This document shows, in pieces, positions 7,034 to 63,353 of a DNA stretch of 64,000 bases (position 1 is its first letter; every line of letters begins with the position of its first letter). The notes beneath the pieces were generated by a model, which saw only the letters and a program-made list of their open reading frames with translations, did no database searches and was not told the DNA's origin. Position numbers and translations under genes: made by a program. The stretch is taken from IMG/VR virus record IMGVR_UViG_3300035158_000899. The stretch is one strand, 5' to 3'. The DNA comes from a virus (lineage: Duplodnaviria; Heunggongvirae; Uroviricota; Caudoviricetes).

Positions 7034-7426
7034 ATGTCCAATTCAACCAACAACAATAGCAAGAAGGAAAAGGCTGTTGACTACGAAGCAATTCGTGGCA
7101 AGGTCAATCCTGCGAAGAAAGGAGTGAAGCCGCACATTAGAATCAGTTGTGCTCAGAATGGAGACAACAAGGTTCGTGTGAAGATTTCTTGTTACGGCCA
7201 CGTGGTTCGTGAGCTTGAGTCAGAAGGCAAGCTTAACAAGGAATTGCGCGGACAAATTCGCGAGCAGGTTGCGAAGCAGATCAGTTCCGGTCATGTAAAG
7301 GGTGGCTGGACAAATGAAGACATCAAGAAGTATTTTATTGATGAGCTTCATAGAGTCCAGGCCGAGAAGAGAAAGAAGTATTCGAAGACCGAGAAGAAGG
7401 AAAAGAAAGCTGAAGCTGCTAAATAA
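7034..7426 (+). CDS. Lysine-rich basic protein with atypical GC-rich, AAG/C-ending codon usage
   Basis: 130-aa K/R-rich ORF. Local GC is about 48% against about 33% in flanking genes, and lysines are encoded mostly by AAG instead of AAA. A roughly 130-nt non-coding leader lies upstream and a stem-loop terminator follows directly. Confidence 0.6.
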   Translation: MSNSTNNNSKKEKAVDYEAIRGKVNPAKKGVKPHIRISCAQNGDNKVRVKISCYGHVVRELESEGKLNKELRGQIREQVAKQISSGHVKGGWTNEDIKKYFIDELHRVQAEKRKKYSKTEKKEKKAEAAK

Positions 7427-19872: not shown

Positions 19873-20799
19873 ATGCAGAATAATAGATATAAAAAGGGCT
19901 ATATAGTAGTTAAGTTAGAATGGATAACGGGGCGAAGAAAGAAATTGGAAGAATATAAGATACCAGAAAGAGGCGTTTGTATCGCAGAGGGTTGCAAACG
20001 GAAGGTTGCGCGAAGACGGAAAAACAATAAAACAATACGTGATGAAAAAGGAAATGTACAATACGAAAAATTTTGTAGTTTGCATTTGAGACAATTACGG
20101 AAGGGTAAATCTTTTTTAAACGAAGATGGTACATGGAGTGATAAAAGAAAACATACAAAGTGTAAAATCCCAGGATGCACAAGGCCTGGTCAAATAAGAC
20201 GAGCGTTCAGAAAAAAGACCGGTAAGGTAGAAGAATATGAAACCTTCCCAAAAGGTTTTTGTGAGTACCATTATTTCCAATATCATCCCAGGAGAGGGCT
20301 CATAAATAAAGAAGGGAAAAGAGTTAGGGAAAAGTTTGGTGAAGTAAGAAAACGCTGTATTGTTGAGGAATGTAGGCGTAAAGCTGTAGTAGCACGTAAG
20401 AATAATAAGGTTGTATTTGATAAAAAAGGTAATATAAAACATGAGAAGTTTTGTAGCATTCATTTACGACCCCATAAACTTTTAAATGAAGATGGTACAT
20501 GGAAAGATGGAAGAAAACATACAAAGTGCAAGATTCCAGGGTGTAAAAATAAAGGTGTAATATATAGAAATAAGCGTAAAGATGGCACTTATGGGGAGAG
20601 CGAAAGATTTGTAAGGGGATTTTGCGCGAAACATTATTGGGATTGGTTTCGTGGTACTATAAGTATTAGTGGAAAACCTATTAAAAGATCGAAACCCGCC
20701 GGATGTAAAGTAAAAGGGTGCAAGAGAGGTGGGCATCTTACAAAAGGTTATTGTTATTGGCATTATACTGCTCAATATCAAAAGAAATATTGTAAATGA
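19873..20799 (+). CDS. Cys/His-rich protein built from three tandem zinc-binding repeats (KHEKFCS.HLR ... HTKCKIPGC ... GFC..HY)
   Basis: Repeat units are evident at both protein and nucleotide level: about 20130-20190 matches about 20490-20550, e.g. 'ggtacatgga..gat..aagaaaacatacaaagtg.aa.at.cc.gg.tg'. Confidence 0.5.
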   Translation: MQNNRYKKGYIVVKLEWITGRRKKLEEYKIPERGVCIAEGCKRKVARRRKNNKTIRDEKGNVQYEKFCSLHLRQLRKGKSFLNEDGTWSDKRKHTKCKIPGCTRPGQIRRAFRKKTGKVEEYETFPKGFCEYHYFQYHPRRGLINKEGKRVREKFGEVRKRCIVEECRRKAVVARKNNKVVFDKKGNIKHEKFCSIHLRPHKLLNEDGTWKDGRKHTKCKIPGCKNKGVIYRNKRKDGTYGESERFVRGFCAKHYWDWFRGTISISGKPIKRSKPAGCKVKGCKRGGHLTKGYCYWHYTAQYQKKYCK

Positions 20800-31189: not shown

Positions 31190-31600
31190 GGTAACAAAAT
31201 GAGAATGACCACTTGGAAAAATTTACTTTTAAAAGCAATGAAAAGTAATGGAAAAAGCTTTACAAAGGGAGGATAAATGAAAATGCATTTGTTAGTAAGA
31301 AATTGTAAAGAAAACGCGTAATGGTGCAGTATTATATTGGAAACCCAAAGAAAAGAAAACACGAAACTTTAAAGCAAGGGAGGAGGTGAGTATGGTATAT
31401 AAGATCGGATTGCTGCTGGCGTTTTTGGTTACATGGCTAGGTTTTATTGGACCTTACGCTGTATCAAGTGAAAGTAATGAACTTGTTATTGGATGGTTTG
31501 TTGTAACATTCGTTGCTTTGTTAATAACTATATCAAAATTAGTTAAAAGTAAAAAAGTTAAAAAATGGTTTAAAAATATTTTCAATTAAGGGGTATAGAA

Positions 31601-32431
31601 ATGAAAAAGATATCAGTATTGTTGTTAGCGTTTATCATATTAACAATGTCAACTGGCTGTTCAAAAGTTCCAGTAGGATATACGGGTATAAAAGTATATT
31701 TGCTTGGCAGGGGAAAAGGCGTTTCCAACCAAGAAGTTTTAGGTACTGGTAGGTATTGGATTGGCATAAACAAAGATTTGCACCTTTTTCCTAAGTTCAT
31801 ACAAAATGTAGTGTGGACTAGAGATACTAGGGAAGGTTCGCCAGTAAACCAAGAAATAACTTTTCAGGATATCGACGGCCTTCAAATTAGTGGTGACTTT
31901 GGATTTTCTTATAGATTGCAAGAGGATAAGATTCCAACACTTTTTGAGAAGCACAGGAAGGGCATAGAAGAAATTACGGATGTATATGTAAGGATGGCTG
32001 TACGAAAAGGGCTTAACGAAGCAGCTTCAACTAGAAAGGTAGATGATATTTATGGTAAAGGTAAGACAGACTTTCTTGAAGATGCCTTAGCCCGTATTAA
32101 AGAAAAGCTTGATGATGAAGGTTTTATTATTGAACAGTTTGCACCAGTTGGTTCTTTTCGATTACCCAAACAGGTTGTAGCTGCTCTAAATGCTAAAATA
32201 CAGGCAACACAACAGGCACAACAAAGGGAAAATGAAGTACAAGAGGAGAAAGCCAAGGCCAATAAACGTAGGGAAGCCGCAAAAGGTGTTGCTGATTCTA
32301 TTATGACAGTAGCTAATGCACAAGCAAAAGCAAATTCAAAGCTTGCTGCTTCTATCTCAAGAACATTATATCATATCAGAAAGAAAGAAAAGGCTATTGA
32401 TGGTGGTTACCCCCGGTTTTTTGTATCTTGA
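31601..32431 (+). CDS. Lipoprotein with SPFH/band-7 (prohibitin/HflC-like) domain
   Basis: Signal peptide plus lipobox 'LTMSTGC'. C-terminal Ala/Gln/Glu-rich coiled coil (QATQQAQQRENEVQEEKAKANKRREAAKG) is typical of band-7 proteins. Confidence 0.4.
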   Translation: MKKISVLLLAFIILTMSTGCSKVPVGYTGIKVYLLGRGKGVSNQEVLGTGRYWIGINKDLHLFPKFIQNVVWTRDTREGSPVNQEITFQDIDGLQISGDFGFSYRLQEDKIPTLFEKHRKGIEEITDVYVRMAVRKGLNEAASTRKVDDIYGKGKTDFLEDALARIKEKLDDEGFIIEQFAPVGSFRLPKQVVAALNAKIQATQQAQQRENEVQEEKAKANKRREAAKGVADSIMTVANAQAKANSKLAASISRTLYHIRKKEKAIDGGYPRFFVS

Positions 32432-32862
32432 AAAAGGATGTAAGAATGAGCGGCCGAAAAGACTTAAAACCTAAATGTTATAAATATCCTAGCCTGAAGG
32501 AATGGAGAATAAATGGACCTGAAGGTCCTTACCATCGCTTAGACGGCCCTGCTATAGAATGGGCTTACGGGACTAAGGAATGGATCCAGAACGGCCAACG
32601 CCACCGATTAGACGGCCCTGCTATAGAATGGGCTAACGGGACTAAGGAATGGTACCAGAACGGCCAATGCCACCGATTAGACGGGCCTGCTATAGAAAGG
32701 GTTGACGGGGATAAGGAATATTGGATACGAGGCACCGATCTTAATGAAAAGGAAATAGAGACCTTTAATTACCTGCAAACATGTGAATTAAAGGAACTCC
32801 CCCTACATATAGGAACCATATTTGATGAACTCATTGAGAAAAGACTCAGAAATGAATCCTAA
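32428..32862 (+). CDS. MORN-variant/YwqK-like repeat protein (three 23-aa HRLDGPAIEW.nGTKEW.QNGQ repeats)
   Basis: Near-identical 69-bp tandem units in the DNA (about 32533-32720). GC content is higher than in neighbouring genes. Confidence 0.5.
   Translation: MKKDVRMSGRKDLKPKCYKYPSLKEWRINGPEGPYHRLDGPAIEWAYGTKEWIQNGQRHRLDGPAIEWANGTKEWYQNGQCHRLDGPAIERVDGDKEYWIRGTDLNEKEIETFNYLQTCELKELPLHIGTIFDELIEKRLRNES
32470..32515 (+). repeat. 46-bp direct repeat, copy 1 (second copy at 32858-32903)
   Basis: 'cctaaatgttataaatatcctagcctgaaggaatggagaataaatg' occurs identically twice, bracketing the MORN-repeat segment. Confidence 0.9.
32533..32720 (+). repeat. About 2.7 copies of a near-perfect 69-bp in-frame tandem repeat
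   Basis: 'caccgattagacggccctgctatagaatgggc.aacgggactaaggaatgg.accagaacggccaa.gc' recurs with very few substitutions. Confidence 0.85.
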
Positions 32863-32903
32863 ATGTTATAAATATCCTAGCCTGAAGGAATGGAGAATAA
32901 ATG
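32858..32903 (+). repeat. 46-bp direct repeat, copy 2
   Basis: Identical to 32470-32515. It contains the stop of the MORN gene and supplies the start of the 32901 ORF. Confidence 0.9.
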
Positions 32904-33422
32904 AGTGTTGGCTGGCTCAAGCATCAGCATAGAAATCAGCATCACTGGGAGCACTGGATACTGAGAGATGATAGAAGCCTGACTGTCCTTGAAATGTCCA
33001 GAAAATATGCTGTTGAAATGCTCTGCGACTGGATTGGTGCTGGTGATTGTCATTATGTTCTGCGTTTTTGTCTGGTGCGGCCCAAGTCTTGAGTCACAGA
33101 ATGTCATTGTAGAAAGAGAGAAGACAGAGCAAATGAAGTATAAATGGAAGAGTGATAGTGTTAATCACAATGTTGAGATGATGAGATTGGAGGAGCAATG
33201 AGCCTGTATAGATATCGTCAGAATGGAGCTTGATGCTATGCAAGCGAGTGCACATGCTAATCCCTGGAATGAGGTAGCTCGTGATATGCTTGAAAAATAG
33301 GAATTATGAATGATGATGGAATGTCAGCAAGAGTTAAGGAATATTTGAATGGTTTAAGAAGCTTGAACGGGGAAGAAGCGAGAGCAATTTCGGACTGCTG
33401 TTCAAGAATATATGTATAAACC

Positions 33423-33611
33423 TTGATTGATTATGGAGAGAAGAGTACTAAAGGAGATGAAATGAGCAAGATAGGAGATTTCCTTGCATGGATGAATGCT
33501 GGTGGCCAGGTTGGTATGAAGTATAATAACTTTCGACAGAAAGACATATTTGAGAATAAGCTGATAGATGACCTTGAAGAGTACAATTTGCTTTCAAATG
33601 TTACGAGGTAG
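33423..33611 (+). CDS. Small hypothetical protein, paralogue of 11487-11669
   Basis: 'KIGDFLAWMNAGGQVGMKYNN' motif shared with the ORF at 11487. Confidence 0.5.
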   Translation: MIDYGEKSTKGDEMSKIGDFLAWMNAGGQVGMKYNNFRQKDIFENKLIDDLEEYNLLSNVTR

Positions 33612-33924
33612 AGGAGGAAGACGATGAACAATGAAGAAGCCATTAGACAACAACAGGAATGGGCACTCATTGATAGCATTGGACATTGGGAAGAAATTGT
33701 TGATGCTCTCAAGAAACATCTTCATAAAAGTGTGAAAGTTACATATCACACTAAGGTTTTCTTTGGAAAAAAGAGATTGTTTGATGCCGGAGACTCTGGC
33801 TGTACTTGTTGTGCGCTTGCAAAAAAGATGAACGGGATAATTTAAGTACAAAACAAGAAGAAAAAGCACAGCGGTTGATAGAAGAACTTCCTTTAGCCTT
33901 AAACCGAATATTAAAGAAGCTTAA

Positions 33925-34323
33925 GTGGGAAAATATAAAATGAAGTGTGTGTTCTGTAATATTTCGCGTACAAAAATAATTGTTGAGAATGATTTAGCGT
34001 ATGCTATTTATGATAAATTTCCTGTAACTAAATATCATACTTTAATAATCTCTAAAAGACATATCGAAAGTTATTTCGGACTTAATTATGATGAAGTACA
34101 TGCGTGTGATAATTTGTTGTCAAAGATGCAGCTTATGATAGAAGAAAAAGACAAAACAGTAAAAGGTTTTAATTTAGGAATTAATTGCGGAGAAGTGGCA
34201 GGACAAACCGTTTTTCATTGCCATATTCATTTAATACCCCGAAGAGAGGGTGATGTAAAAGATCCAGTGGGAGGAATCAGACATGTCATTCCAGGAAAAG
34301 GAAACTACAAAAAGGAAAACTAA
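33925..34323 (+). CDS. HIT-family (histidine triad) nucleotide hydrolase/transferase
   Basis: 'VFHCHIHLIPR' HxHxHxx histidine-triad motif; 132 aa. Confidence 0.7.
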   Translation: MGKYKMKCVFCNISRTKIIVENDLAYAIYDKFPVTKYHTLIISKRHIESYFGLNYDEVHACDNLLSKMQLMIEEKDKTVKGFNLGINCGEVAGQTVFHCHIHLIPRREGDVKDPVGGIRHVIPGKGNYKKEN

Positions 34324-34501
34324 AAAGAAGCAGCAGCCTAAGAAGAAAGAAAAGATGATCGAAATAATACCTTCCAGTAAACTGGTTTATGTTAAGGTTA
34401 GATCTAGCAAAATAGCATCATCAAAAAAGATGGACGATAGGGTGACCATTGATTATGATAAAGATAATCAAATTACTGGAATTGAAGTTTGGAGGTAAAT
34501 T

Positions 34502-56830: not shown

Positions 56831-58171
56831 ATGAAAACGACAATGAATAAAAATACCTGTTATATTTTTGGAAGATGGCTGGGTGATGGTAGTAAAACAA
56901 CAAATGCATTAGAAATTGCGAGAAGTAATAATAATTATGAAAAAAAAAATATGGAACAAATAGCGGTTATGCTTAATACTACATATAAACATTGTAATAA
57001 TTATAGTACAAGATTTCATAGACAACAAAAATTAGTCAATCAATTTAAAATTCTATATAATGTTATAAGCGAGATTCACAATTTTTCTTTTTTAAAATTT
57101 TCAATAAATAGATATTCAATTATAGCAGGTTTTCTTGATTCTGACGGCAGCGTAGATATTCACACGCCAAATGAAACTGGAATAAGCAGTAAAAAAATAA
57201 ATATTGTATTTTATAATAATAATTCGCAAATTTTATATTTTATACAAAGATTGCTGCAGATAGACAACATAACATCAACATATAGTAAATCGTATAATTT
57301 AAAAACAAATGTGGGAACAGATAAATGCAACAGGTTATACATACACGGAAGCTTAGATAATTATTTTATAGCATATAAAATATTACCACATATGTTATGC
57401 AATTTTAAGAAAAAGAGATTACAACAATGGACTCGTGATTACGATCGTTTTTATCAAAAAAAGAAAATAAATATTACCGAAATTTTTCATAGTATAGAAG
57501 GTGAGGGACGCAGAATTGGAGAACCTATTACATTTATAAGAGTATACGGCTGCCCGCATAAATGTTCGTTTTGTGATACCAAATATTCTGTGTGTAAGAG
57601 CAGAAGTACGAGATCAAAACATAGCAGGGATTTAAAAATTGTAATCAATGATATTATTAAATTAGGTAACGTTCAAAATATCGAATTTACAGGAGGTTCC
57701 CCAGATTGGTTCCCAGCAAAAATTGGTTATCTATTGATATATTTTAAAGCACGGTATAACAGTAACATAACTATGCAAGTTAGTGGAGGCATTAAAACAG
57801 ATAAGAGCAATAGATTATTTAAATTGTCTACGTTAAACGCATTTGATTATAAGGACCCAAGGGAGAATATTCCATTCGTTATCGAACCTGAATTGATTCG
57901 TTCACAGGATGAAATTAAATTTTTAATAAAAGATAATTTTAGTTACAATTTTGTAAAAAAGAAGATCCAGGAATTGCAAGCTATTGGTATAAATTGTAAA
58001 ATGATAATAACAACTGTAACAAATAATGGCAACGATATTGTTACAGATCATTTAGAAAAATTGAAAAAATTAACAGAAAAAATATTAACAGATGCAAATT
58101 TTCCTAAAGAAAATGTTAAAATTGCCCCCAGGGAACACGTATTATTATGGGGAAATAAAAAAGGTGTATAG
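56831..58171 (+). CDS. queE: 7-carboxy-7-deazaguanine synthase QueE (radical SAM) carrying an in-frame N-terminal double-motif LAGLIDADG homing-endonuclease domain
   Basis: Residues about 215-446: 'EIFHSIEGEGRRIGEPITFIRVYGCPHKCSFCDTKYS' matches the QueE N-terminus with the Cx3Cx2C cluster. Residues 1-214: 'YIFGRWLGDGS' and 'IIAGFLDSDGSV' LAGLIDADG motifs about 90 aa apart in an extremely AT-rich, Asn/Lys-rich segment. Confidence 0.7.
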   Translation: MKTTMNKNTCYIFGRWLGDGSKTTNALEIARSNNNYEKKNMEQIAVMLNTTYKHCNNYSTRFHRQQKLVNQFKILYNVISEIHNFSFLKFSINRYSIIAGFLDSDGSVDIHTPNETGISSKKINIVFYNNNSQILYFIQRLLQIDNITSTYSKSYNLKTNVGTDKCNRLYIHGSLDNYFIAYKILPHMLCNFKKKRLQQWTRDYDRFYQKKKINITEIFHSIEGEGRRIGEPITFIRVYGCPHKCSFCDTKYSVCKSRSTRSKHSRDLKIVINDIIKLGNVQNIEFTGGSPDWFPAKIGYLLIYFKARYNSNITMQVSGGIKTDKSNRLFKLSTLNAFDYKDPRENIPFVIEPELIRSQDEIKFLIKDNFSYNFVKKKIQELQAIGINCKMIITTVTNNGNDIVTDHLEKLKKLTEKILTDANFPKENVKIAPREHVLLWGNKKGV

Positions 58172-59429: not shown

Positions 59430-60750
59430 TCCGCATTTCTATTAATAGTTTGTTTTTTAACAATCTATTAATAAATATATATAATAAAAATAGATAACGC
59501 TATTATTGATTGATAAAGGTATATTGTGCAGAGAGTAGAACGTCATATAGTTTTAAACAATAGGAATATAGAAAAGCTGTGTACCCTTTCTAAAAACCTT
59601 TATAATGTGGGTAATTATAACATCAGGCAGGAGTTTATAAACAATGGTAATTGGTTGAGATATCAACAATTAGATAAATTACTTAAGGAAACTAAAGATT
59701 ATAAAGCGCTTTCTGCACAAGTAGCTCAACAAGTATTAAGGCTTCTGGATAAAAATTGGATATCATTTTTTGAAGCAAATAAGAGATATAATAGGGATTC
59801 AAAAAAATTTAGAAGCAGACCTAAGTTGCCAAGGTATAAAAATAAAAATACAGGGAAAAATATGGTTGTCTTTACTAAACAAGATGCTAGACTAAAAAAT
59901 GGATTTATTTGTTTCCCAAAAAAAGTTAACCTTGAACCTTTAAAAACAAAAGTAAATAATATTTGTCAAGTTAGAATTGTGCCACAAGCAGTTTGTTATG
60001 TTATTGAAGTTGTTTACAATAAGGAGGCCAAAAATGTAAAATTACAACCGAACACTTATTTGAGTATTGATCTAGGTGTCAATAATTTTGCTACATGTGT
60101 TAACAACATAGGTTTAAAACCTTTTGTTGTAAATGGTAAGATATTAAAATCTATTAATCAATATTTTAATAAGAAAAAAGCTAGGCTAATGTCTTATGTA
60201 AAAGATAAGGGTACTTCTAATAAGGTTGACAAATTGATACATAAACGAAATTGCAAAGTACAAGATTATCTCCATAAGACTTCGAGGTTTATAGTTAATT
60301 ATTGTATTGCGTATAAAATAGGTGTTATTATTGTTGGTAAAAATAAAGATTGGAAGCAAGAAATTGATATGGGAAAAAAGAACAATCAAAATTTTGTTTC
60401 AATACCTTTTGACACTTTAGTAAAACAAATACGGTATAAGGCTGAAGAAGCAGGAATTAAGATAGCTGTTAGTGAAGAATCTTATACTTCTAAATGCAGT
60501 TTTTTAGATTTTGAAAAGGTCAAAAAACAAGTTGAATATTTAGGTAAAAGAATTAAGAGAGGGTTATTTAGGTCAGCGGAAGGTATTTTGATAAATGCAG
60601 ATGTTAATTCTGCTTATAATATTTTAAAAAAAGTAGTTCCAAATGCATTTGCAAATGGAATAGAGGGTGTAGGGTTACATCCAATTGTAATACAATTACA
60701 ATAAAAGATAACCTTAATAATAGTATATTTATCGACAAGGACTTAGCGAT
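59430..60750 (+). mobile_element. IS200/IS605-family insertion sequence of the TnpB-only (IS1341-like) type
   Basis: Contains only a TnpB ORF. The flanking AT-rich ends carry palindromic 'tctattaata(g)' motifs on the left (x2) and 'ttaataatag' on the right. Exact boundaries are uncertain. Confidence 0.6.
59526..60704 (+). CDS. tnpB: IS605 OrfB / TnpB RuvC-like RNA-guided nuclease family protein
   Basis: N-terminal 'NLYNVGNYNIRQEF' helix-turn-helix region, RuvC-I 'LSIDLGVNNFATCV', C-terminal 'NADVNSAYNILKKV' (RuvC-III). The usual CxxC...CxxC zinc finger appears degenerate (a single Cys). Confidence 0.85.
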   Translation: MQRVERHIVLNNRNIEKLCTLSKNLYNVGNYNIRQEFINNGNWLRYQQLDKLLKETKDYKALSAQVAQQVLRLLDKNWISFFEANKRYNRDSKKFRSRPKLPRYKNKNTGKNMVVFTKQDARLKNGFICFPKKVNLEPLKTKVNNICQVRIVPQAVCYVIEVVYNKEAKNVKLQPNTYLSIDLGVNNFATCVNNIGLKPFVVNGKILKSINQYFNKKKARLMSYVKDKGTSNKVDKLIHKRNCKVQDYLHKTSRFIVNYCIAYKIGVIIVGKNKDWKQEIDMGKKNNQNFVSIPFDTLVKQIRYKAEEAGIKIAVSEESYTSKCSFLDFEKVKKQVEYLGKRIKRGLFRSAEGILINADVNSAYNILKKVVPNAFANGIEGVGLHPIVIQLQ

Positions 60751-62867: not shown

Positions 62868-63353
62868 ATGAAGCTCTTTTCTTTTGTATTATTGCTGCCC
62901 TCTTACGCATTTGCGGATACTGCAGTTAATGTAACACCGACTGTTTCTTTAAAGACTCACCCTATATTGCAGTATGGCATAGCAGGTGCATTAATGTTTT
63001 TTGTTGTTACGAAATTAATAGGATTAGTTAAATGGGTAATAGATAAAAAAACAAAAAGCAGCAATAATAATAACAACAACACTGCGCGATTAGTTGCGGA
63101 TATTTTAAAACAAGAAACCAACAGAGATCAAAAGGTTTATGAAAGAATCAATGCAGTTGAAAAAGGGATTAATGAAAGAATCAATGCAGTTGAAAAAGGG
63201 ATTAATGAAAGAATTGAAGCAATTAAACAAGATGTAGAAGATATTAAATTACAACAGGCTAGCTTACCAGGAACACTTTTTCAAGAATTTGTTACTAAAG
63301 AAACCTGTAAAGAGAGACGGGATTCATGCCCAGCGGTGCAAAAAAGAAGTTAA
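62868..63353 (+). CDS. Secreted/membrane protein with poly-Asn tract and tandem 11-aa 'ERINAVEKGIN' repeats
   Basis: Signal peptide 'MKLFSFVLLLPSYAFA' and a second TM helix. 33-bp tandem DNA repeat at 63141-63230; (aat/aac)n tract at about 63060-63080. Confidence 0.5.
   Translation: MKLFSFVLLLPSYAFADTAVNVTPTVSLKTHPILQYGIAGALMFFVVTKLIGLVKWVIDKKTKSSNNNNNNTARLVADILKQETNRDQKVYERINAVEKGINERINAVEKGINERIEAIKQDVEDIKLQQASLPGTLFQEFVTKETCKERRDSCPAVQKRS
63141..63230 (+). repeat. About 2.7 copies of a 33-bp in-frame tandem repeat 'gaaagaatcaatgcagttgaaaaagggattaat'
   Basis: Two perfect copies followed by a diverged partial copy. Confidence 0.85.

What the first reader, a model, noticed from the sequence alone, without database searches (positions are those of the whole stretch)
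32428..33420. Compositionally foreign segment bounded by 46-bp perfect direct repeats and containing freshly expanded 69-bp tandem repeats
The MORN/YwqK-like gene (32428-32862) is flanked by two identical 46-bp copies of cctaaatgttataaatatcctagcctgaaggaatggagaataaatg, at 32470-32515 and 32858-32903. The first copy lies inside the 5' end of the gene. The second copy carries its stop and restarts a short ORF, so the second copy looks like a duplicated gene start.

Inside the gene are about 2.7 near-identical 69-bp tandem units, which implies very recent expansion. Immediately downstream, 32900-33420 is noticeably GC-richer than the rest of the window. That stretch holds only short, RBS-less, overlapping ORFs on both strands, so it may be non-coding RNA or decayed cargo.

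The whole arrangement looks like a recombination or duplication scar or a small cassette. It does not look like ordinary phage coding sequence.
Basis: seen in the sequence. Interest (0 to 1): 0.55.

Follow-up and report, generated by a model that had tools for sequence, protein, structure and literature searches.

The report
Gene-fragment scar beside a phage repeat-protein gene
An intact MORN-like repeat-protein gene in an uncultured phage is followed by a 46-bp leftover of a second copy of its own 5' end, fused to a broken piece of another gene; this is an ordinary recombination scar in a variable genome region, not a new element or RNA.

Summary
The sequence observation is real. A perfect 46-bp direct repeat lies at 32470-32515 and 32858-32903, and a 69-bp x 2.7 tandem array lies at 32532-32719.

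- **The gene.** ORF 32446-32862 is an intact member of a very large family of 23-residue HRxDGPA..G.K.WY.NG repeat proteins. They are MORN-like by fold but not by Pfam profile. The 69-bp period is the family's native repeat, so it is not evidence of a fresh expansion.
- **Repeat copy 1.** It encodes the conserved first beta-hairpin of the protein.
- **Repeat copy 2.** It is an orphan. It carries the gene's stop codon, and its last three bases (ATG) start a 63-aa ORF.
- **The 63-aa ORF.** Residues 2-50 are an internal fragment of a DUF5662 domain (profile 72-117 of 156). No trace of either missing end was found in the window.
- **No RNA evidence.** Rfam gives no hit and folding z-scores are +0.1 to +1.3.
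- **Context.** Distant relatives keep the upstream Band_7 gene but carry different genes downstream. In other phages this repeat family forms tandem paralogue arrays that share exact 5' stretches of 12-89 bp.

Best reading: the 5' stub of a second paralogue was fused by deletion to gene debris in a hyperplastic region. Interest is low.

The parts
31601..32431 (+). Band_7/SPFH (prohibitin-like) lipoprotein gene. It is the last gene conserved with distant relatives and marks the left edge of the variable region.
   Evidence: Pfam Band_7 E=1.1e-19. Homologues at 54-66% identity lie on contigs L003-L006. Three of these (L003-L005) also keep the small upstream membrane ORF. None shares anything with the window downstream of Band_7.
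32446..32862 (+). Intact MORN-like repeat-protein gene of 138 aa (an alternative TTG start at 32428 gives 144 aa). It has a degenerate first half-repeat, three 23-aa HRLDGPA units and a helical tail.
   Evidence: ORF list. A 100% identical protein, P0001, lies on a JGI 117-kb contig, and 7124 family hits were found. The AF2 model has pLDDT 88.4. The top Foldseek PDB hits are MORN proteins. Coding score is positive in this frame.
32470..32515 (+). 46-bp repeat, copy 1 (R1). It is native coding sequence for residues P9-G24 (PKCYKYPSLKEWRING), the first beta-hairpin.
   Evidence: The peptide aligns to the family repeat PAxExxxGxKEWxxNG. K18 and W20 fall in nearly invariant columns. Strands E10-14 and E17-21 have pLDDT around 94.
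32532..32738 (+). Three 69-bp (23-codon) repeat units at 100/91/65% identity. This is the GC-rich core of the gene.
   Evidence: GC is 0.53 and GC3 is 0.49, the 100th percentile of the window.
32825..32932 (+). Putative stub of a second paralogue in the +1 frame relative to the gene (MNSLRKDSEMNPKCYKYPSLKEWRINECWLAQASA*). It ends 29 nt after the repeat.
   Evidence: The enclosing ORF is 32822-32932. The 9-mer GAAAAGACT lies before both repeat copies and occurs only 3 times in 64 kb. Relative to ATG 32446 and ATG 32825 the offsets differ by multiples of three. The statistical support is weak.
32858..32903 (+). 46-bp repeat, copy 2 (R2), the orphan copy. It contains the TAA stop of the repeat gene (32860-32862), a GGAG, and the ATG (32901) of the next ORF.
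32904..33050 (+). Internal fragment of a DUF5662 gene, read within ORF 32901-33092 (63 aa). The N-terminal part of about 70-80 residues (with the HDxSK motif) and the C-terminal part of about 40-50 residues are both absent.
   Evidence: Pfam PF18907 scores 60.6 bits at profile positions 72-117 of 156. phrog_20637 matches positions 77-121 of 174. tblastn with two full-length phage homologues matches only this stretch. In a search of 1.84 billion representatives, every listed hit aligns query residues ~2-50 (at most 61), in nearly all to the interior of a 101-467 aa protein. A custom HMM against the six-frame window finds only 32883-33050.
32989..33201 (+). 70-aa ORF with one predicted membrane helix (my reading of the hydrophobic stretch). 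It overlaps the end of the DUF5662 fragment in another frame. It could be a real small gene or another fragment.
   Evidence: Coding score is +5 to +8 in this frame over 33040-33190. A weak phrog_33578 hit has E=0.0035. There is no Pfam hit and no tblastn hit in phages. GC3 is 0.52. I see no convincing Shine-Dalgarno sequence.
33223..33419 (+). Two tiny ORFs: 33223-33300 (25 aa) and 33306-33419 (37 aa). Each is in frame with a neighbouring ORF across a single stop (TGA 33199; TAA 33417). Their status is unknown and they may be decayed genes.
   Evidence: Neither matches any family, and the stop-joined 33306-33611 reading has no phage tblastn match. Coding scores are weak.
33462..33611 (+). First downstream ORF with a strong Shine-Dalgarno sequence (AGGAG, 5-nt spacer). 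Ordinary gene packing resumes here and at 33624-33845.
   Evidence: Sequence and coding score.

Best explanation
This is a recombination scar in the variable accessory region of an uncultured large phage. Just downstream of a conserved Band_7 gene sits one intact gene for a MORN-like 23-residue-repeat protein.

The second 46-mer is what remains of the 5' end of a second, tandem copy of that gene. A deletion or illegitimate join removed the rest of that copy together with the 5' half of a downstream DUF5662 gene. That event fused the stub directly to an internal DUF5662 fragment. The fragment's 3' part has also been lost or overwritten.

The GGAG and ATG inside the 46-mer are by-products of the codons W-R-I-N-G. 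By chance they give the DUF5662 fragment a translatable 63-aa ORF, which lacks the N-terminal and C-terminal parts of the domain and is probably non-functional.

The GC3-rich pieces (repeat core, DUF5662 fragment, next ORF) were probably imported from a GC-richer phage.

The only 'activity' of the arrangement is passive. Two perfect 46-bp direct repeats 388 bp apart are a substrate for homologous recombination. That recombination would delete, or amplify, the 388-bp unit that carries most of the repeat gene.

*Shown:* the anatomy, the domain fragment, the absence of RNA signals, the variability of the locus, and the tandem-array habit of the family. *Inferred:* the order and mechanism of the events.
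For: - The repeat is exact and non-random.
- Copy 1 is native coding sequence for conserved family residues and a confident beta-hairpin.
- Copy 2 ends within one codon of where DUF5662 homology begins: SVGWLKHQH aligns to DVAWLKHQN.
- Only DUF5662 profile positions 72-117 of 156 are present, and no other piece is found in any of the six frames of the 64-kb window.
- Every listed hit (best 150 of 1011) aligns only query residues ~2-50 (at most 61), in nearly all to the interior of a 101-467 aa protein.
- The locus is variable. Band_7 relatives at 54-66% identity have unrelated genes downstream.
- The family forms tandem paralogue arrays in other phage contigs: 10 consecutive genes in L007, 5 in L008 and 3 in L010. 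Adjacent 5' regions there are 81-92% identical and share exact stretches of 12-89 bp. A perfect 46-bp 5' match flanked by diverged sequence is therefore normal for this family.
- The 9-mer GAAAAGACT and in-frame offsets upstream of both copies hint that homology continues in diverged form.
- GC3 is 0.47-0.52 against 0.264 (sd 0.055) for window genes. In L008 and L010 the family's GC3 is close to or below that of neighbouring ORFs, so amino-acid content alone does not explain the excess here.
- The stretch 32863-33924 is the longest in the window with no plus-strand ORF of 90 aa or more.
Against: - No close relative of this phage could be found, so the ancestral arrangement is not observed.
- Homology upstream of the 46-mer is statistically weak (p about 0.035 for a local alignment, 0.056 when end-anchored). 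A fresh 46-bp copy cannot be excluded.
- Zero differences in 46 bp contrasts with 6 in 69 between repeat units 1 and 2. The chance of 0 in 46 at that divergence is about 0.015. This means the 46-mer identity is young or was homogenised.
- Only 64 kb of a contig of at least 117 kb was visible, so the other DUF5662 parts could lie elsewhere.
Confidence: 0.65

Rival explanations
1. A one-step local rearrangement rather than a paralogue stub. During replication or repair the nascent strand switched template twice. It copied 46 bp from 388 bp upstream into a deletion junction that removed the native sequence after the repeat gene and the 5' half of DUF5662. This would be a templated insertion at a deletion.
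For: The identity is perfect with sharp boundaries on both sides. The right boundary coincides with the DUF5662 break. The 46-mer is younger than the unit 1 / unit 2 duplication (6 of 69 differences against 0 of 46). Only one repeat-protein gene exists in the window.
Against: There is no microhomology at the left junction (...GAAATGAAT|CC against ...GACTTAAAA|CC). It needs two switches. The 9-mer GAAAAGACT upstream of both copies would have to be chance, although it occurs only 3 times in 64 kb. Tandem paralogues with long exact 5' matches are the family norm.
Confidence: 0.2
2. The 46-mer is a functional portable cassette, with a -10-like TGTTATAAA, GGAG and ATG. It would flank the repeat gene like the PeSL regulatory cassettes of T4-type phages. 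That would allow excision of a 388-bp mini-circle and the shuffling or activation of downstream gene pieces.
For: Direct repeats flank a single small accessory gene in a hyperplastic region. The repeat ends in SD + ATG, which opens the next ORF. PeSL-flanked ORFans form mini-circles in RB49/phi1 (PMC2839356). The window encodes an SbcC/Rad50-like protein (SMC_N and SbcC Walker B domains), so recombination capacity is plausible by inference.
Against: Copy 1 lies inside a coding region and encodes conserved residues, so the SD and ATG follow from the codons. There are only two copies in 64 kb. The consensus scan finds no promoter or terminator in either copy. In copy 1 the same ATG opens a 9-codon dead-end ORF. 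The downstream 'gene' is a domain fragment.
Confidence: 0.05
3. Metagenome assembly artefact: two strains or loci that share the 46-mer were joined wrongly, or the copy number of the 388-bp unit was mis-resolved.
For: The source is a single metagenomic contig with no second occurrence in the databases. Repeats are classic misassembly points.
Against: My own reasoning, not a tool result: 46 bp is shorter than ordinary reads, so both junctions should be read through. A single linear path through all four flanks requires A-R-X-R-B with at least one unit. Gene order, strand and GC skew are continuous across the region.
Confidence: 0.05
4. Region 32900-33420 encodes a structured non-coding RNA.
For: There are no long ORFs, and GC is somewhat raised.
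Against: No Rfam family matches at E<=1. Minimum free energies are no better than shuffles (z = +0.71, +1.34, +0.10). The first 147 bp are recognisable protein-coding debris. Positions 33040-33190 have a positive coding score.
Confidence: 0.02

Closest known systems
Mosaic joints and gene remnants in hyperplastic (variable) regions of large phage genomes
   Same: It lies directly after a conserved gene, where relatives carry unrelated small genes. It contains truncated gene pieces, ORFans, foreign codon composition and short direct repeats at a junction.
   Different: Nothing essential differs. The only particular feature is that the junction repeat comes from the 5' coding region of the neighbouring gene and happens to supply an SD and ATG to the next fragment.
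Tandem paralogue arrays of the HRxDGPA 23-residue repeat proteins (MORN-like; some members carry faint DUF6745 or DUF7666 Pfam hits) in phage contigs
   Same: It has the same repeat period, motif and C-terminal tail type. Arrays in L007, L008 and L010 show adjacent paralogues with exact shared 5' stretches of 12-89 bp.
   Different: Here only one complete gene survives, plus a stub of 46 bp to about 80 bp of a second. The repeat core has a GC3 far above its genome, unlike in L008 and L010.
PeSL mobile regulatory cassettes of T4-type phages (Arbiol et al. 2010, PMC2839356; Comeau et al. 2014, PMC4122927)
   Same: Direct repeats flank a single accessory ORF in a variable region. Homologous exchange between them would give a mini-circle or a deletion.
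   Different: PeSLs are intergenic promoter plus stem-loop terminator motifs present in many copies. This 46-mer is coding sequence, has two copies, and shows no promoter or terminator consensus.
Eukaryotic and bacterial MORN repeat proteins (TbMORN1 6t4r, junctophilins; Pfam MORN / MORN_2 'YwqK')
   Same: It shares the 23-residue period and a beta-hairpin repeat architecture. The top structural matches are MORN proteins.
   Different: There is no Pfam MORN or MORN_2 hit even at E<=10. The structural matches are weak (best E=0.044, TM 0.36).

Membership tests
MORN repeat (Pfam MORN PF02493 / MORN_2 PF07661, 'YwqK-like') | Significant match to the family profile | tested here: not met
   hmmscan against Pfam-A gives 0 families at E<=1 and at E<=10 for the 138/144-aa protein. 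Homologues P0002, P0007 and P0026 also show no MORN hit, only faint DUF6745. NCBIfam gives none.
MORN repeat (Pfam MORN PF02493 / MORN_2 PF07661, 'YwqK-like') | Tandem repeats of about 23 residues with conserved Gly and aromatic positions | tested here: met
   HRxDGPA motif spacing is 23 in 338 of 363 cases across 120 homologues. H, R, G, P, A and W columns are invariant or nearly so.
MORN repeat (Pfam MORN PF02493 / MORN_2 PF07661, 'YwqK-like') | Beta-hairpin repeat fold superposable on solved MORN proteins | tested here: inconclusive
   The AF2 model (pLDDT 88.4) is made of beta-hairpins plus a helical tail. The top Foldseek PDB matches include TbMORN1 (rank 1; prob 0.92, E=0.044, TMq 0.36) and junctophilin-1/-2 (ranks 3, 6, 7), alongside ciliary central-apparatus chains whose fold I did not check. 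None reaches E<=0.001.
DUF5662 (PF18907) | Score above the Pfam gathering threshold | tested here: met
   ORF 32901-33092 scores 60.6 bits against a cut-off of 27, E=1.8e-16.
DUF5662 (PF18907) | Complete domain, including the N-terminal HDxSK region and the C-terminal part | tested here: not met
   Only profile positions 72-117 of 156 match. With a custom 174-node HMM, only nodes 65-121 match, and nothing else matches in the six-frame window. Full-length phage homologues of 160-172 aa align only at residues 74-128.
PeSL-type mobile regulatory cassette | Intergenic sigma-70-like promoter plus stem-loop terminator | tested here: not met
   Copy 1 is inside a coding sequence. The consensus scan reports no promoter or terminator inside either 46-mer.
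PeSL-type mobile regulatory cassette | Many dispersed copies flanking accessory ORFs | tested here: not met
   There are exactly two copies in 64 kb with up to 3 mismatches allowed. A whole-window repeat search shows no further members. The rest of the genome was not visible.
Transposable element with target-site duplication | Terminal inverted repeats and/or a transposase between the direct repeats, with the direct repeat not part of the cargo's own coding logic | tested here: not met
   There are no inverted repeats at the boundaries. The 342 bp between the copies encodes only the continuation of the repeat protein, whose first hairpin is encoded by copy 1 itself. From general knowledge, 46 bp is far longer than usual target-site duplications.
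Structured non-coding RNA (any Rfam family) | Covariance-model match or excess thermodynamic stability | tested here: not met
   There are 0 Rfam matches at E<=1 in 31500-34500. Folding z-scores are +0.71, +1.34 and +0.10.

The most novel reading that the evidence does not exclude
The 46-mer would be a coding-sequence-derived, portable 'start cassette' (a -10-like element, GGAG and ATG). Homologous exchange between its copies would excise the repeat-protein gene as a 388-bp mini-circle and graft translation signals onto captured gene fragments. This would be a PeSL-like shuffling mechanism in an unrelated phage lineage, and the 63-aa DUF5662 core would be a newly born mini-protein.
Probability: 0.05. 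Interest if true: 0.5.

Novelty: new member of a known kind. Interest (0 to 1): 0.18.

Why it matters
It matters little beyond annotation.

- It shows how a variable region of an uncultured phage is patched together from an intact repeat-protein gene, the stub of a second copy and a broken DUF5662 gene.
- It warns against calling the 63-aa ORF a DUF5662 protein.
- It warns against reading the family's native 69-bp periodicity as a fresh expansion.
- The direct repeats predict a testable 388-bp deletion or amplification polymorphism.

If the minority reading were right, it would extend cassette-mediated modular shuffling beyond T4-type phages.

Tried and rejected
**Searches for close relatives, all empty**
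- Megablast and blastn of the region against 50,697 phage records.
- Band_7, the 204-aa neighbour and the 252-aa neighbour in viral contigs.
- Band_7 in metagenome contigs.
- The exact 38-mer of the repeat in viral contigs.
- A degenerate pattern for the peptide KCYKYPxxKEW in metagenome, viral and genome contigs.
- Exact-protein contig look-ups for the window's Band_7 and repeat proteins.
- The word-indexed protein search with the 63-aa ORF, which found no candidates.
- Cluster look-up, which shows one member each on one 117-kb JGI contig with no accession given.

**Rejected readings**
- *Target-site duplication of an inserted element.* Copy 1 plus the interior form one continuous, family-typical protein.
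- *DUF5662 split by insertion of the repeat gene.* No N-terminal half lies upstream. Band_7 ends at 32431 and the custom HMM finds nothing.
- *Programmed frameshift joining the gene to the stub frame.* That frame closes after 26 codons.
- *Stop-codon reassignment for the in-frame stops at 33199 and 33417.* The two stop codons differ (TGA and TAA).
- *Link to the window's TnpB-like or LAGLIDADG genes.* No sequence is shared with the 46-mer.

**Other empty results**
- tblastn and Pfam/PHROG scans of ORFs 32989-33611 gave only a weak phrog_33578 hit.
- PDB sequence searches for the repeat protein and a full-length DUF5662 gave nothing useful.
Full report
**1. The observation**

The 46-mer CCTAAATGTTATAAATATCCTAGCCTGAAGGAATGGAGAATAAATG occurs exactly twice, at 32470-32515 and 32858-32903. 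The copies are 388 bp apart with no mismatch. No further copy exists in the 64-kb window even with 3 mismatches allowed, and none appears in 100 shuffles.

Tandem Repeats Finder reports a 69-bp period with 2.7 copies and 89% matches at 32532-32719. The three units are 100, 91 and 65% identical to the first.

ORF 32428(TTG)/32446(ATG)-32862 contains copy 1 as codons P9-G24. Copy 2 contains that ORF's TAA stop (32860-32862). The last three bases of copy 2 are the ATG of ORF 32901-33092.

The window averages 34.4% GC, and 400-bp windows have an sd of 0.031. The raised GC is patchy:

| Segment | GC |
|---|---|
| Leader 32432-32469 | 0.37 |
| Both 46-mers | 0.33 |
| Repeat core 32516-32738 | 0.53 (richest stretch of its length in the window) |
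| Gene tail 32739-32857 | 0.33 |
| 32904-33050 | 0.46 (99th percentile) |
| 33051-33305 | 0.40-0.43 |
| 33306-33420 | 0.37 |

So the repeats do not bound a uniform foreign block. Each copy is followed at once by a GC-rich piece.

**2. The gene**

The 138-aa product is 100% identical to one JGI protein (P0001) on a 117-kb contig. It has more than 7000 homologues in metagenomes. They share tandem 23-residue units, HRxDGPAxExxxGxKxWYxNGxx, and a tail of the type WWIxGxxLTExEF.

Motif spacing is 23 residues in 338 of 363 cases, with 2-6 motifs per protein (3-5 in 111 of the 120). The median best identity between adjacent units is 74%. About 10% of proteins reach the 87% seen here. The 69-bp periodicity is therefore the native architecture of the family. 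Units 1 and 2 differ at 6 of 69 bases, so they are not freshly duplicated.

Pfam MORN and MORN_2 do not match at any threshold, and NCBIfam gives nothing. An AlphaFold2 model built on 45 homologues is confident (pLDDT 88.4) and shows beta-hairpins followed by two helices. Its best PDB matches are MORN proteins: TbMORN1 at prob 0.92, E=0.044 and TM 0.36, then junctophilins. 'MORN-like' is a fair description of the fold, but family membership is not demonstrated.

Copy 1 of the 46-mer encodes PKCYKYPSLKEWRING. This aligns to the family unit PAxExxxGxKEWxxNG. It includes the nearly invariant K18 and W20 and forms the first hairpin at pLDDT about 94. Copy 1 is therefore native, and copy 2 is the displaced one.

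**3. What follows copy 2**

ORF 32901-33092 (63 aa) matches Pfam DUF5662 at 60.6 bits (cut-off 27), but only over profile positions 72-117 of 156. It also matches phrog_20637 over positions 77-121 of 174.

- Two full-length phage homologues (172 and 160 aa) align only over their residues 74-128.
- An exhaustive HMMER search of 1.84 billion representatives gave 1011 hits. Every listed hit aligns only query residues ~2-50 (at most 61), in nearly all to the interior of a 101-467 aa protein. No stand-alone protein of about 60 aa appears among the 150 best hits listed.
- A 174-node profile built from 81 of these proteins, run against the six-frame translation of all 64 kb, hits only 32883-33050 (nodes 65-121).
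- There is no trace of the N-terminal region, which carries the HDxSK motif of the homologues, or of the C-terminal region.

Homology starts at SVGW (32904), immediately after the 46-mer. The right end of copy 2 is therefore the 5' breakpoint of a gene fragment that is also truncated or overwritten at about 33050.

The GGAG (5-nt spacer) and ATG that make this fragment an ORF come from the codons TGG-AGA-ATA-AAT-G of W-R-I-N-G. In copy 1 the same ATG opens only a 9-codon ORF.

**4. The rest of 32900-33420**

A three-periodic Markov model trained on 73 long ORFs of the window gave these results:

- There is no clear coding signal over 32770-33010.
- There is a clear positive signal in the frame of ORF 32989-33201 over 33040-33190.
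- There is a weak signal in the frame of 33306-33419, strengthening from 33400 into the in-frame 33423-33611 ORF.
- All minus-strand frames are strongly negative.

ORF 32989-33201 is a 70-aa protein with one hydrophobic helix. It has a weak PHROG hit (E=0.0035) and nothing else.

Two ORF pairs, 32989-33201/33223-33300 and 33306-33419/33423-33611, are each in frame across a single stop (TGA and TAA respectively). This is compatible with decayed genes. The stop-joined 33306-33611 reading has no phage tblastn match, and neither stop-joined reading has a convincing Pfam match.

Strong Shine-Dalgarno sequences resume at 33462 and 33624.

The stretch 32863-33924 is the longest in the window without a plus-strand ORF of 90 aa or more.

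There is no evidence for an RNA gene. Rfam gives no match at E<=1, and three overlapping folds have z-scores of +0.71, +1.34 and +0.10. No promoter or terminator consensus falls in either 46-mer.

**5. Composition**

GC3 is 0.49 in the repeat core, 0.47 in the DUF5662 fragment and 0.52 in ORF 33007-33201. The mean for 80 window ORFs is 0.264 with sd 0.055.

In two other phage contigs (L008 and L010) the same repeat family has GC3 close to or below that of neighbouring ORFs, while in the GC-rich L007 it is above. Amino-acid content alone therefore does not explain the excess here. Import from a GC-richer donor is the likeliest reason; this is inference.

**6. Context and relatives**

No close relative of this phage exists in the collections available.

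The nearest Band_7 homologues (66, 59 and 54% identity) lie on contigs L003-L006. L003-L005 also keep the small membrane ORF upstream of Band_7. None shares anything with the window downstream of it, and their downstream genes are neither repeat proteins nor DUF5662. The variable region thus begins right after Band_7.

The repeat-protein family commonly forms tandem arrays. L007 has ten consecutive genes, L008 has five in 10 kb, and L010/L011 have three adjacent genes. In those arrays the 5' 160 nt of adjacent paralogues are 81-92% identical and share exact stretches of 12-89 bp, for example 54, 65 and 89 bp.

**7. Explanation**

The simplest history has four steps.

1. The locus, or its donor, carried at least two tandem paralogues of the repeat gene followed by a DUF5662 gene.
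2. A deletion joined the 5' stub of the second paralogue to the middle of DUF5662.
3. Further decay or another join removed the 3' part of DUF5662.
4. What remains is the intact first gene, a stub whose best-preserved part is the 46-mer, and debris.

A hint that homology continues upstream of the 46-mer in diverged form is as follows. GAAAAGACT lies 14 nt before copy 1 and 20 nt before copy 2, and it occurs only 3 times in 64 kb. With ATG 32446 and ATG 32825 as starts, both offsets differ by multiples of three, giving MSGRKDLK-PKCY... against MNSLRKDSEMN-PKCY.... The statistics are weak, with p about 0.035 for a local alignment and 0.056 when end-anchored.

The main rival is a one-step templated 46-bp copy at a deletion junction. 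It fits the sharp boundaries and the youth of the 46-mer: 0 of 46 differences against 6 of 69 between units, which has a chance of about 0.015 at equal age. It lacks junction microhomology and needs two template switches.

Both readings are scars. A functional PeSL-like cassette (PMC2839356), an assembly chimera and an RNA gene are all much less likely.

The arrangement is predicted to be unstable. Recombination between the 46-mers would delete 388 bp and leave a 32-codon fusion ORF plus the same 63-aa ORF.

**8. Verdict**

The feature is real, but it is an ordinary product of phage mosaic evolution. The 'fresh expansion', 'RNA', 'RBS-less' and 'bounded foreign segment' parts are not. Interest is low, and it is a new instance of a known kind of feature.

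Noticed in passing
window 59526-60704 (+): A 392-aa ORF with OrfB_IS605 (E=5.5e-23) and Cas12f1-like TNB domains. This is a TnpB-type RNA-guided nuclease gene inside a phage-like genome. Its element ends and omega-RNA were not examined.
   Followed up: no
window 56831-58171 (+): A 446-aa radical-SAM / 4Fe-4S protein carrying a LAGLIDADG endonuclease domain at residues ~97-178. This could be an intein or a homing-endonuclease fusion.
   Followed up: no
window 7034-7426 (+): The only other strongly GC-rich ORF in the window (GC 0.448, GC3 0.527 against a mean GC3 of 0.264). It has no Pfam match and is probably another recent import.
   Followed up: partly
window 20114-20182 and 20480-20548: A 69-nt direct repeat at 84% identity, 366 bp apart, inside ORF 19873-20799 (308 aa). 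It looks like an internal domain duplication.
   Followed up: no
window 63136-63201: Two tandem 33-nt units at 97% identity inside ORF 62868-63353.
   Followed up: no
window 32456-32464 and 32838-32846: The 9-mer GAAAAGACT sits just upstream of both 46-mers and occurs only 3 times in 64 kb. With in-frame offsets, this suggests diverged homology beyond the perfect repeat. The statistics are weak.
   Followed up: partly
window 33199-33201 and 33417-33419: Single in-frame stops (TGA, TAA) separate ORF pairs 32989-33201/33223-33300 and 33306-33419/33423-33611. These may be nonsense-decayed small genes.
   Followed up: partly
L008 3072-9499: Twelve copies of an ~82-nt intergenic motif (...CTAGGGATATAG..TATAGT..TATCTTTA..ATAAAATTAA..ATG) precede the small genes of this unrelated phage contig, including its five repeat-protein paralogues. 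It looks like a PeSL-like repeated regulatory cassette.
   Followed up: no
L007 3608-9724: Ten consecutive genes of the HRxDGPA repeat family, most overlapping by 4 nt. Two of the 186-aa copies are 99.5% identical in DNA, which indicates very recent cassette duplication in a 65% GC phage contig.
   Followed up: partly
window 31386-31589 with 31601-32431: A small membrane ORF (67 aa) plus the Band_7 lipoprotein gene form a conserved two-gene unit. L003, L004 and L005 also carry it.
   Followed up: partly
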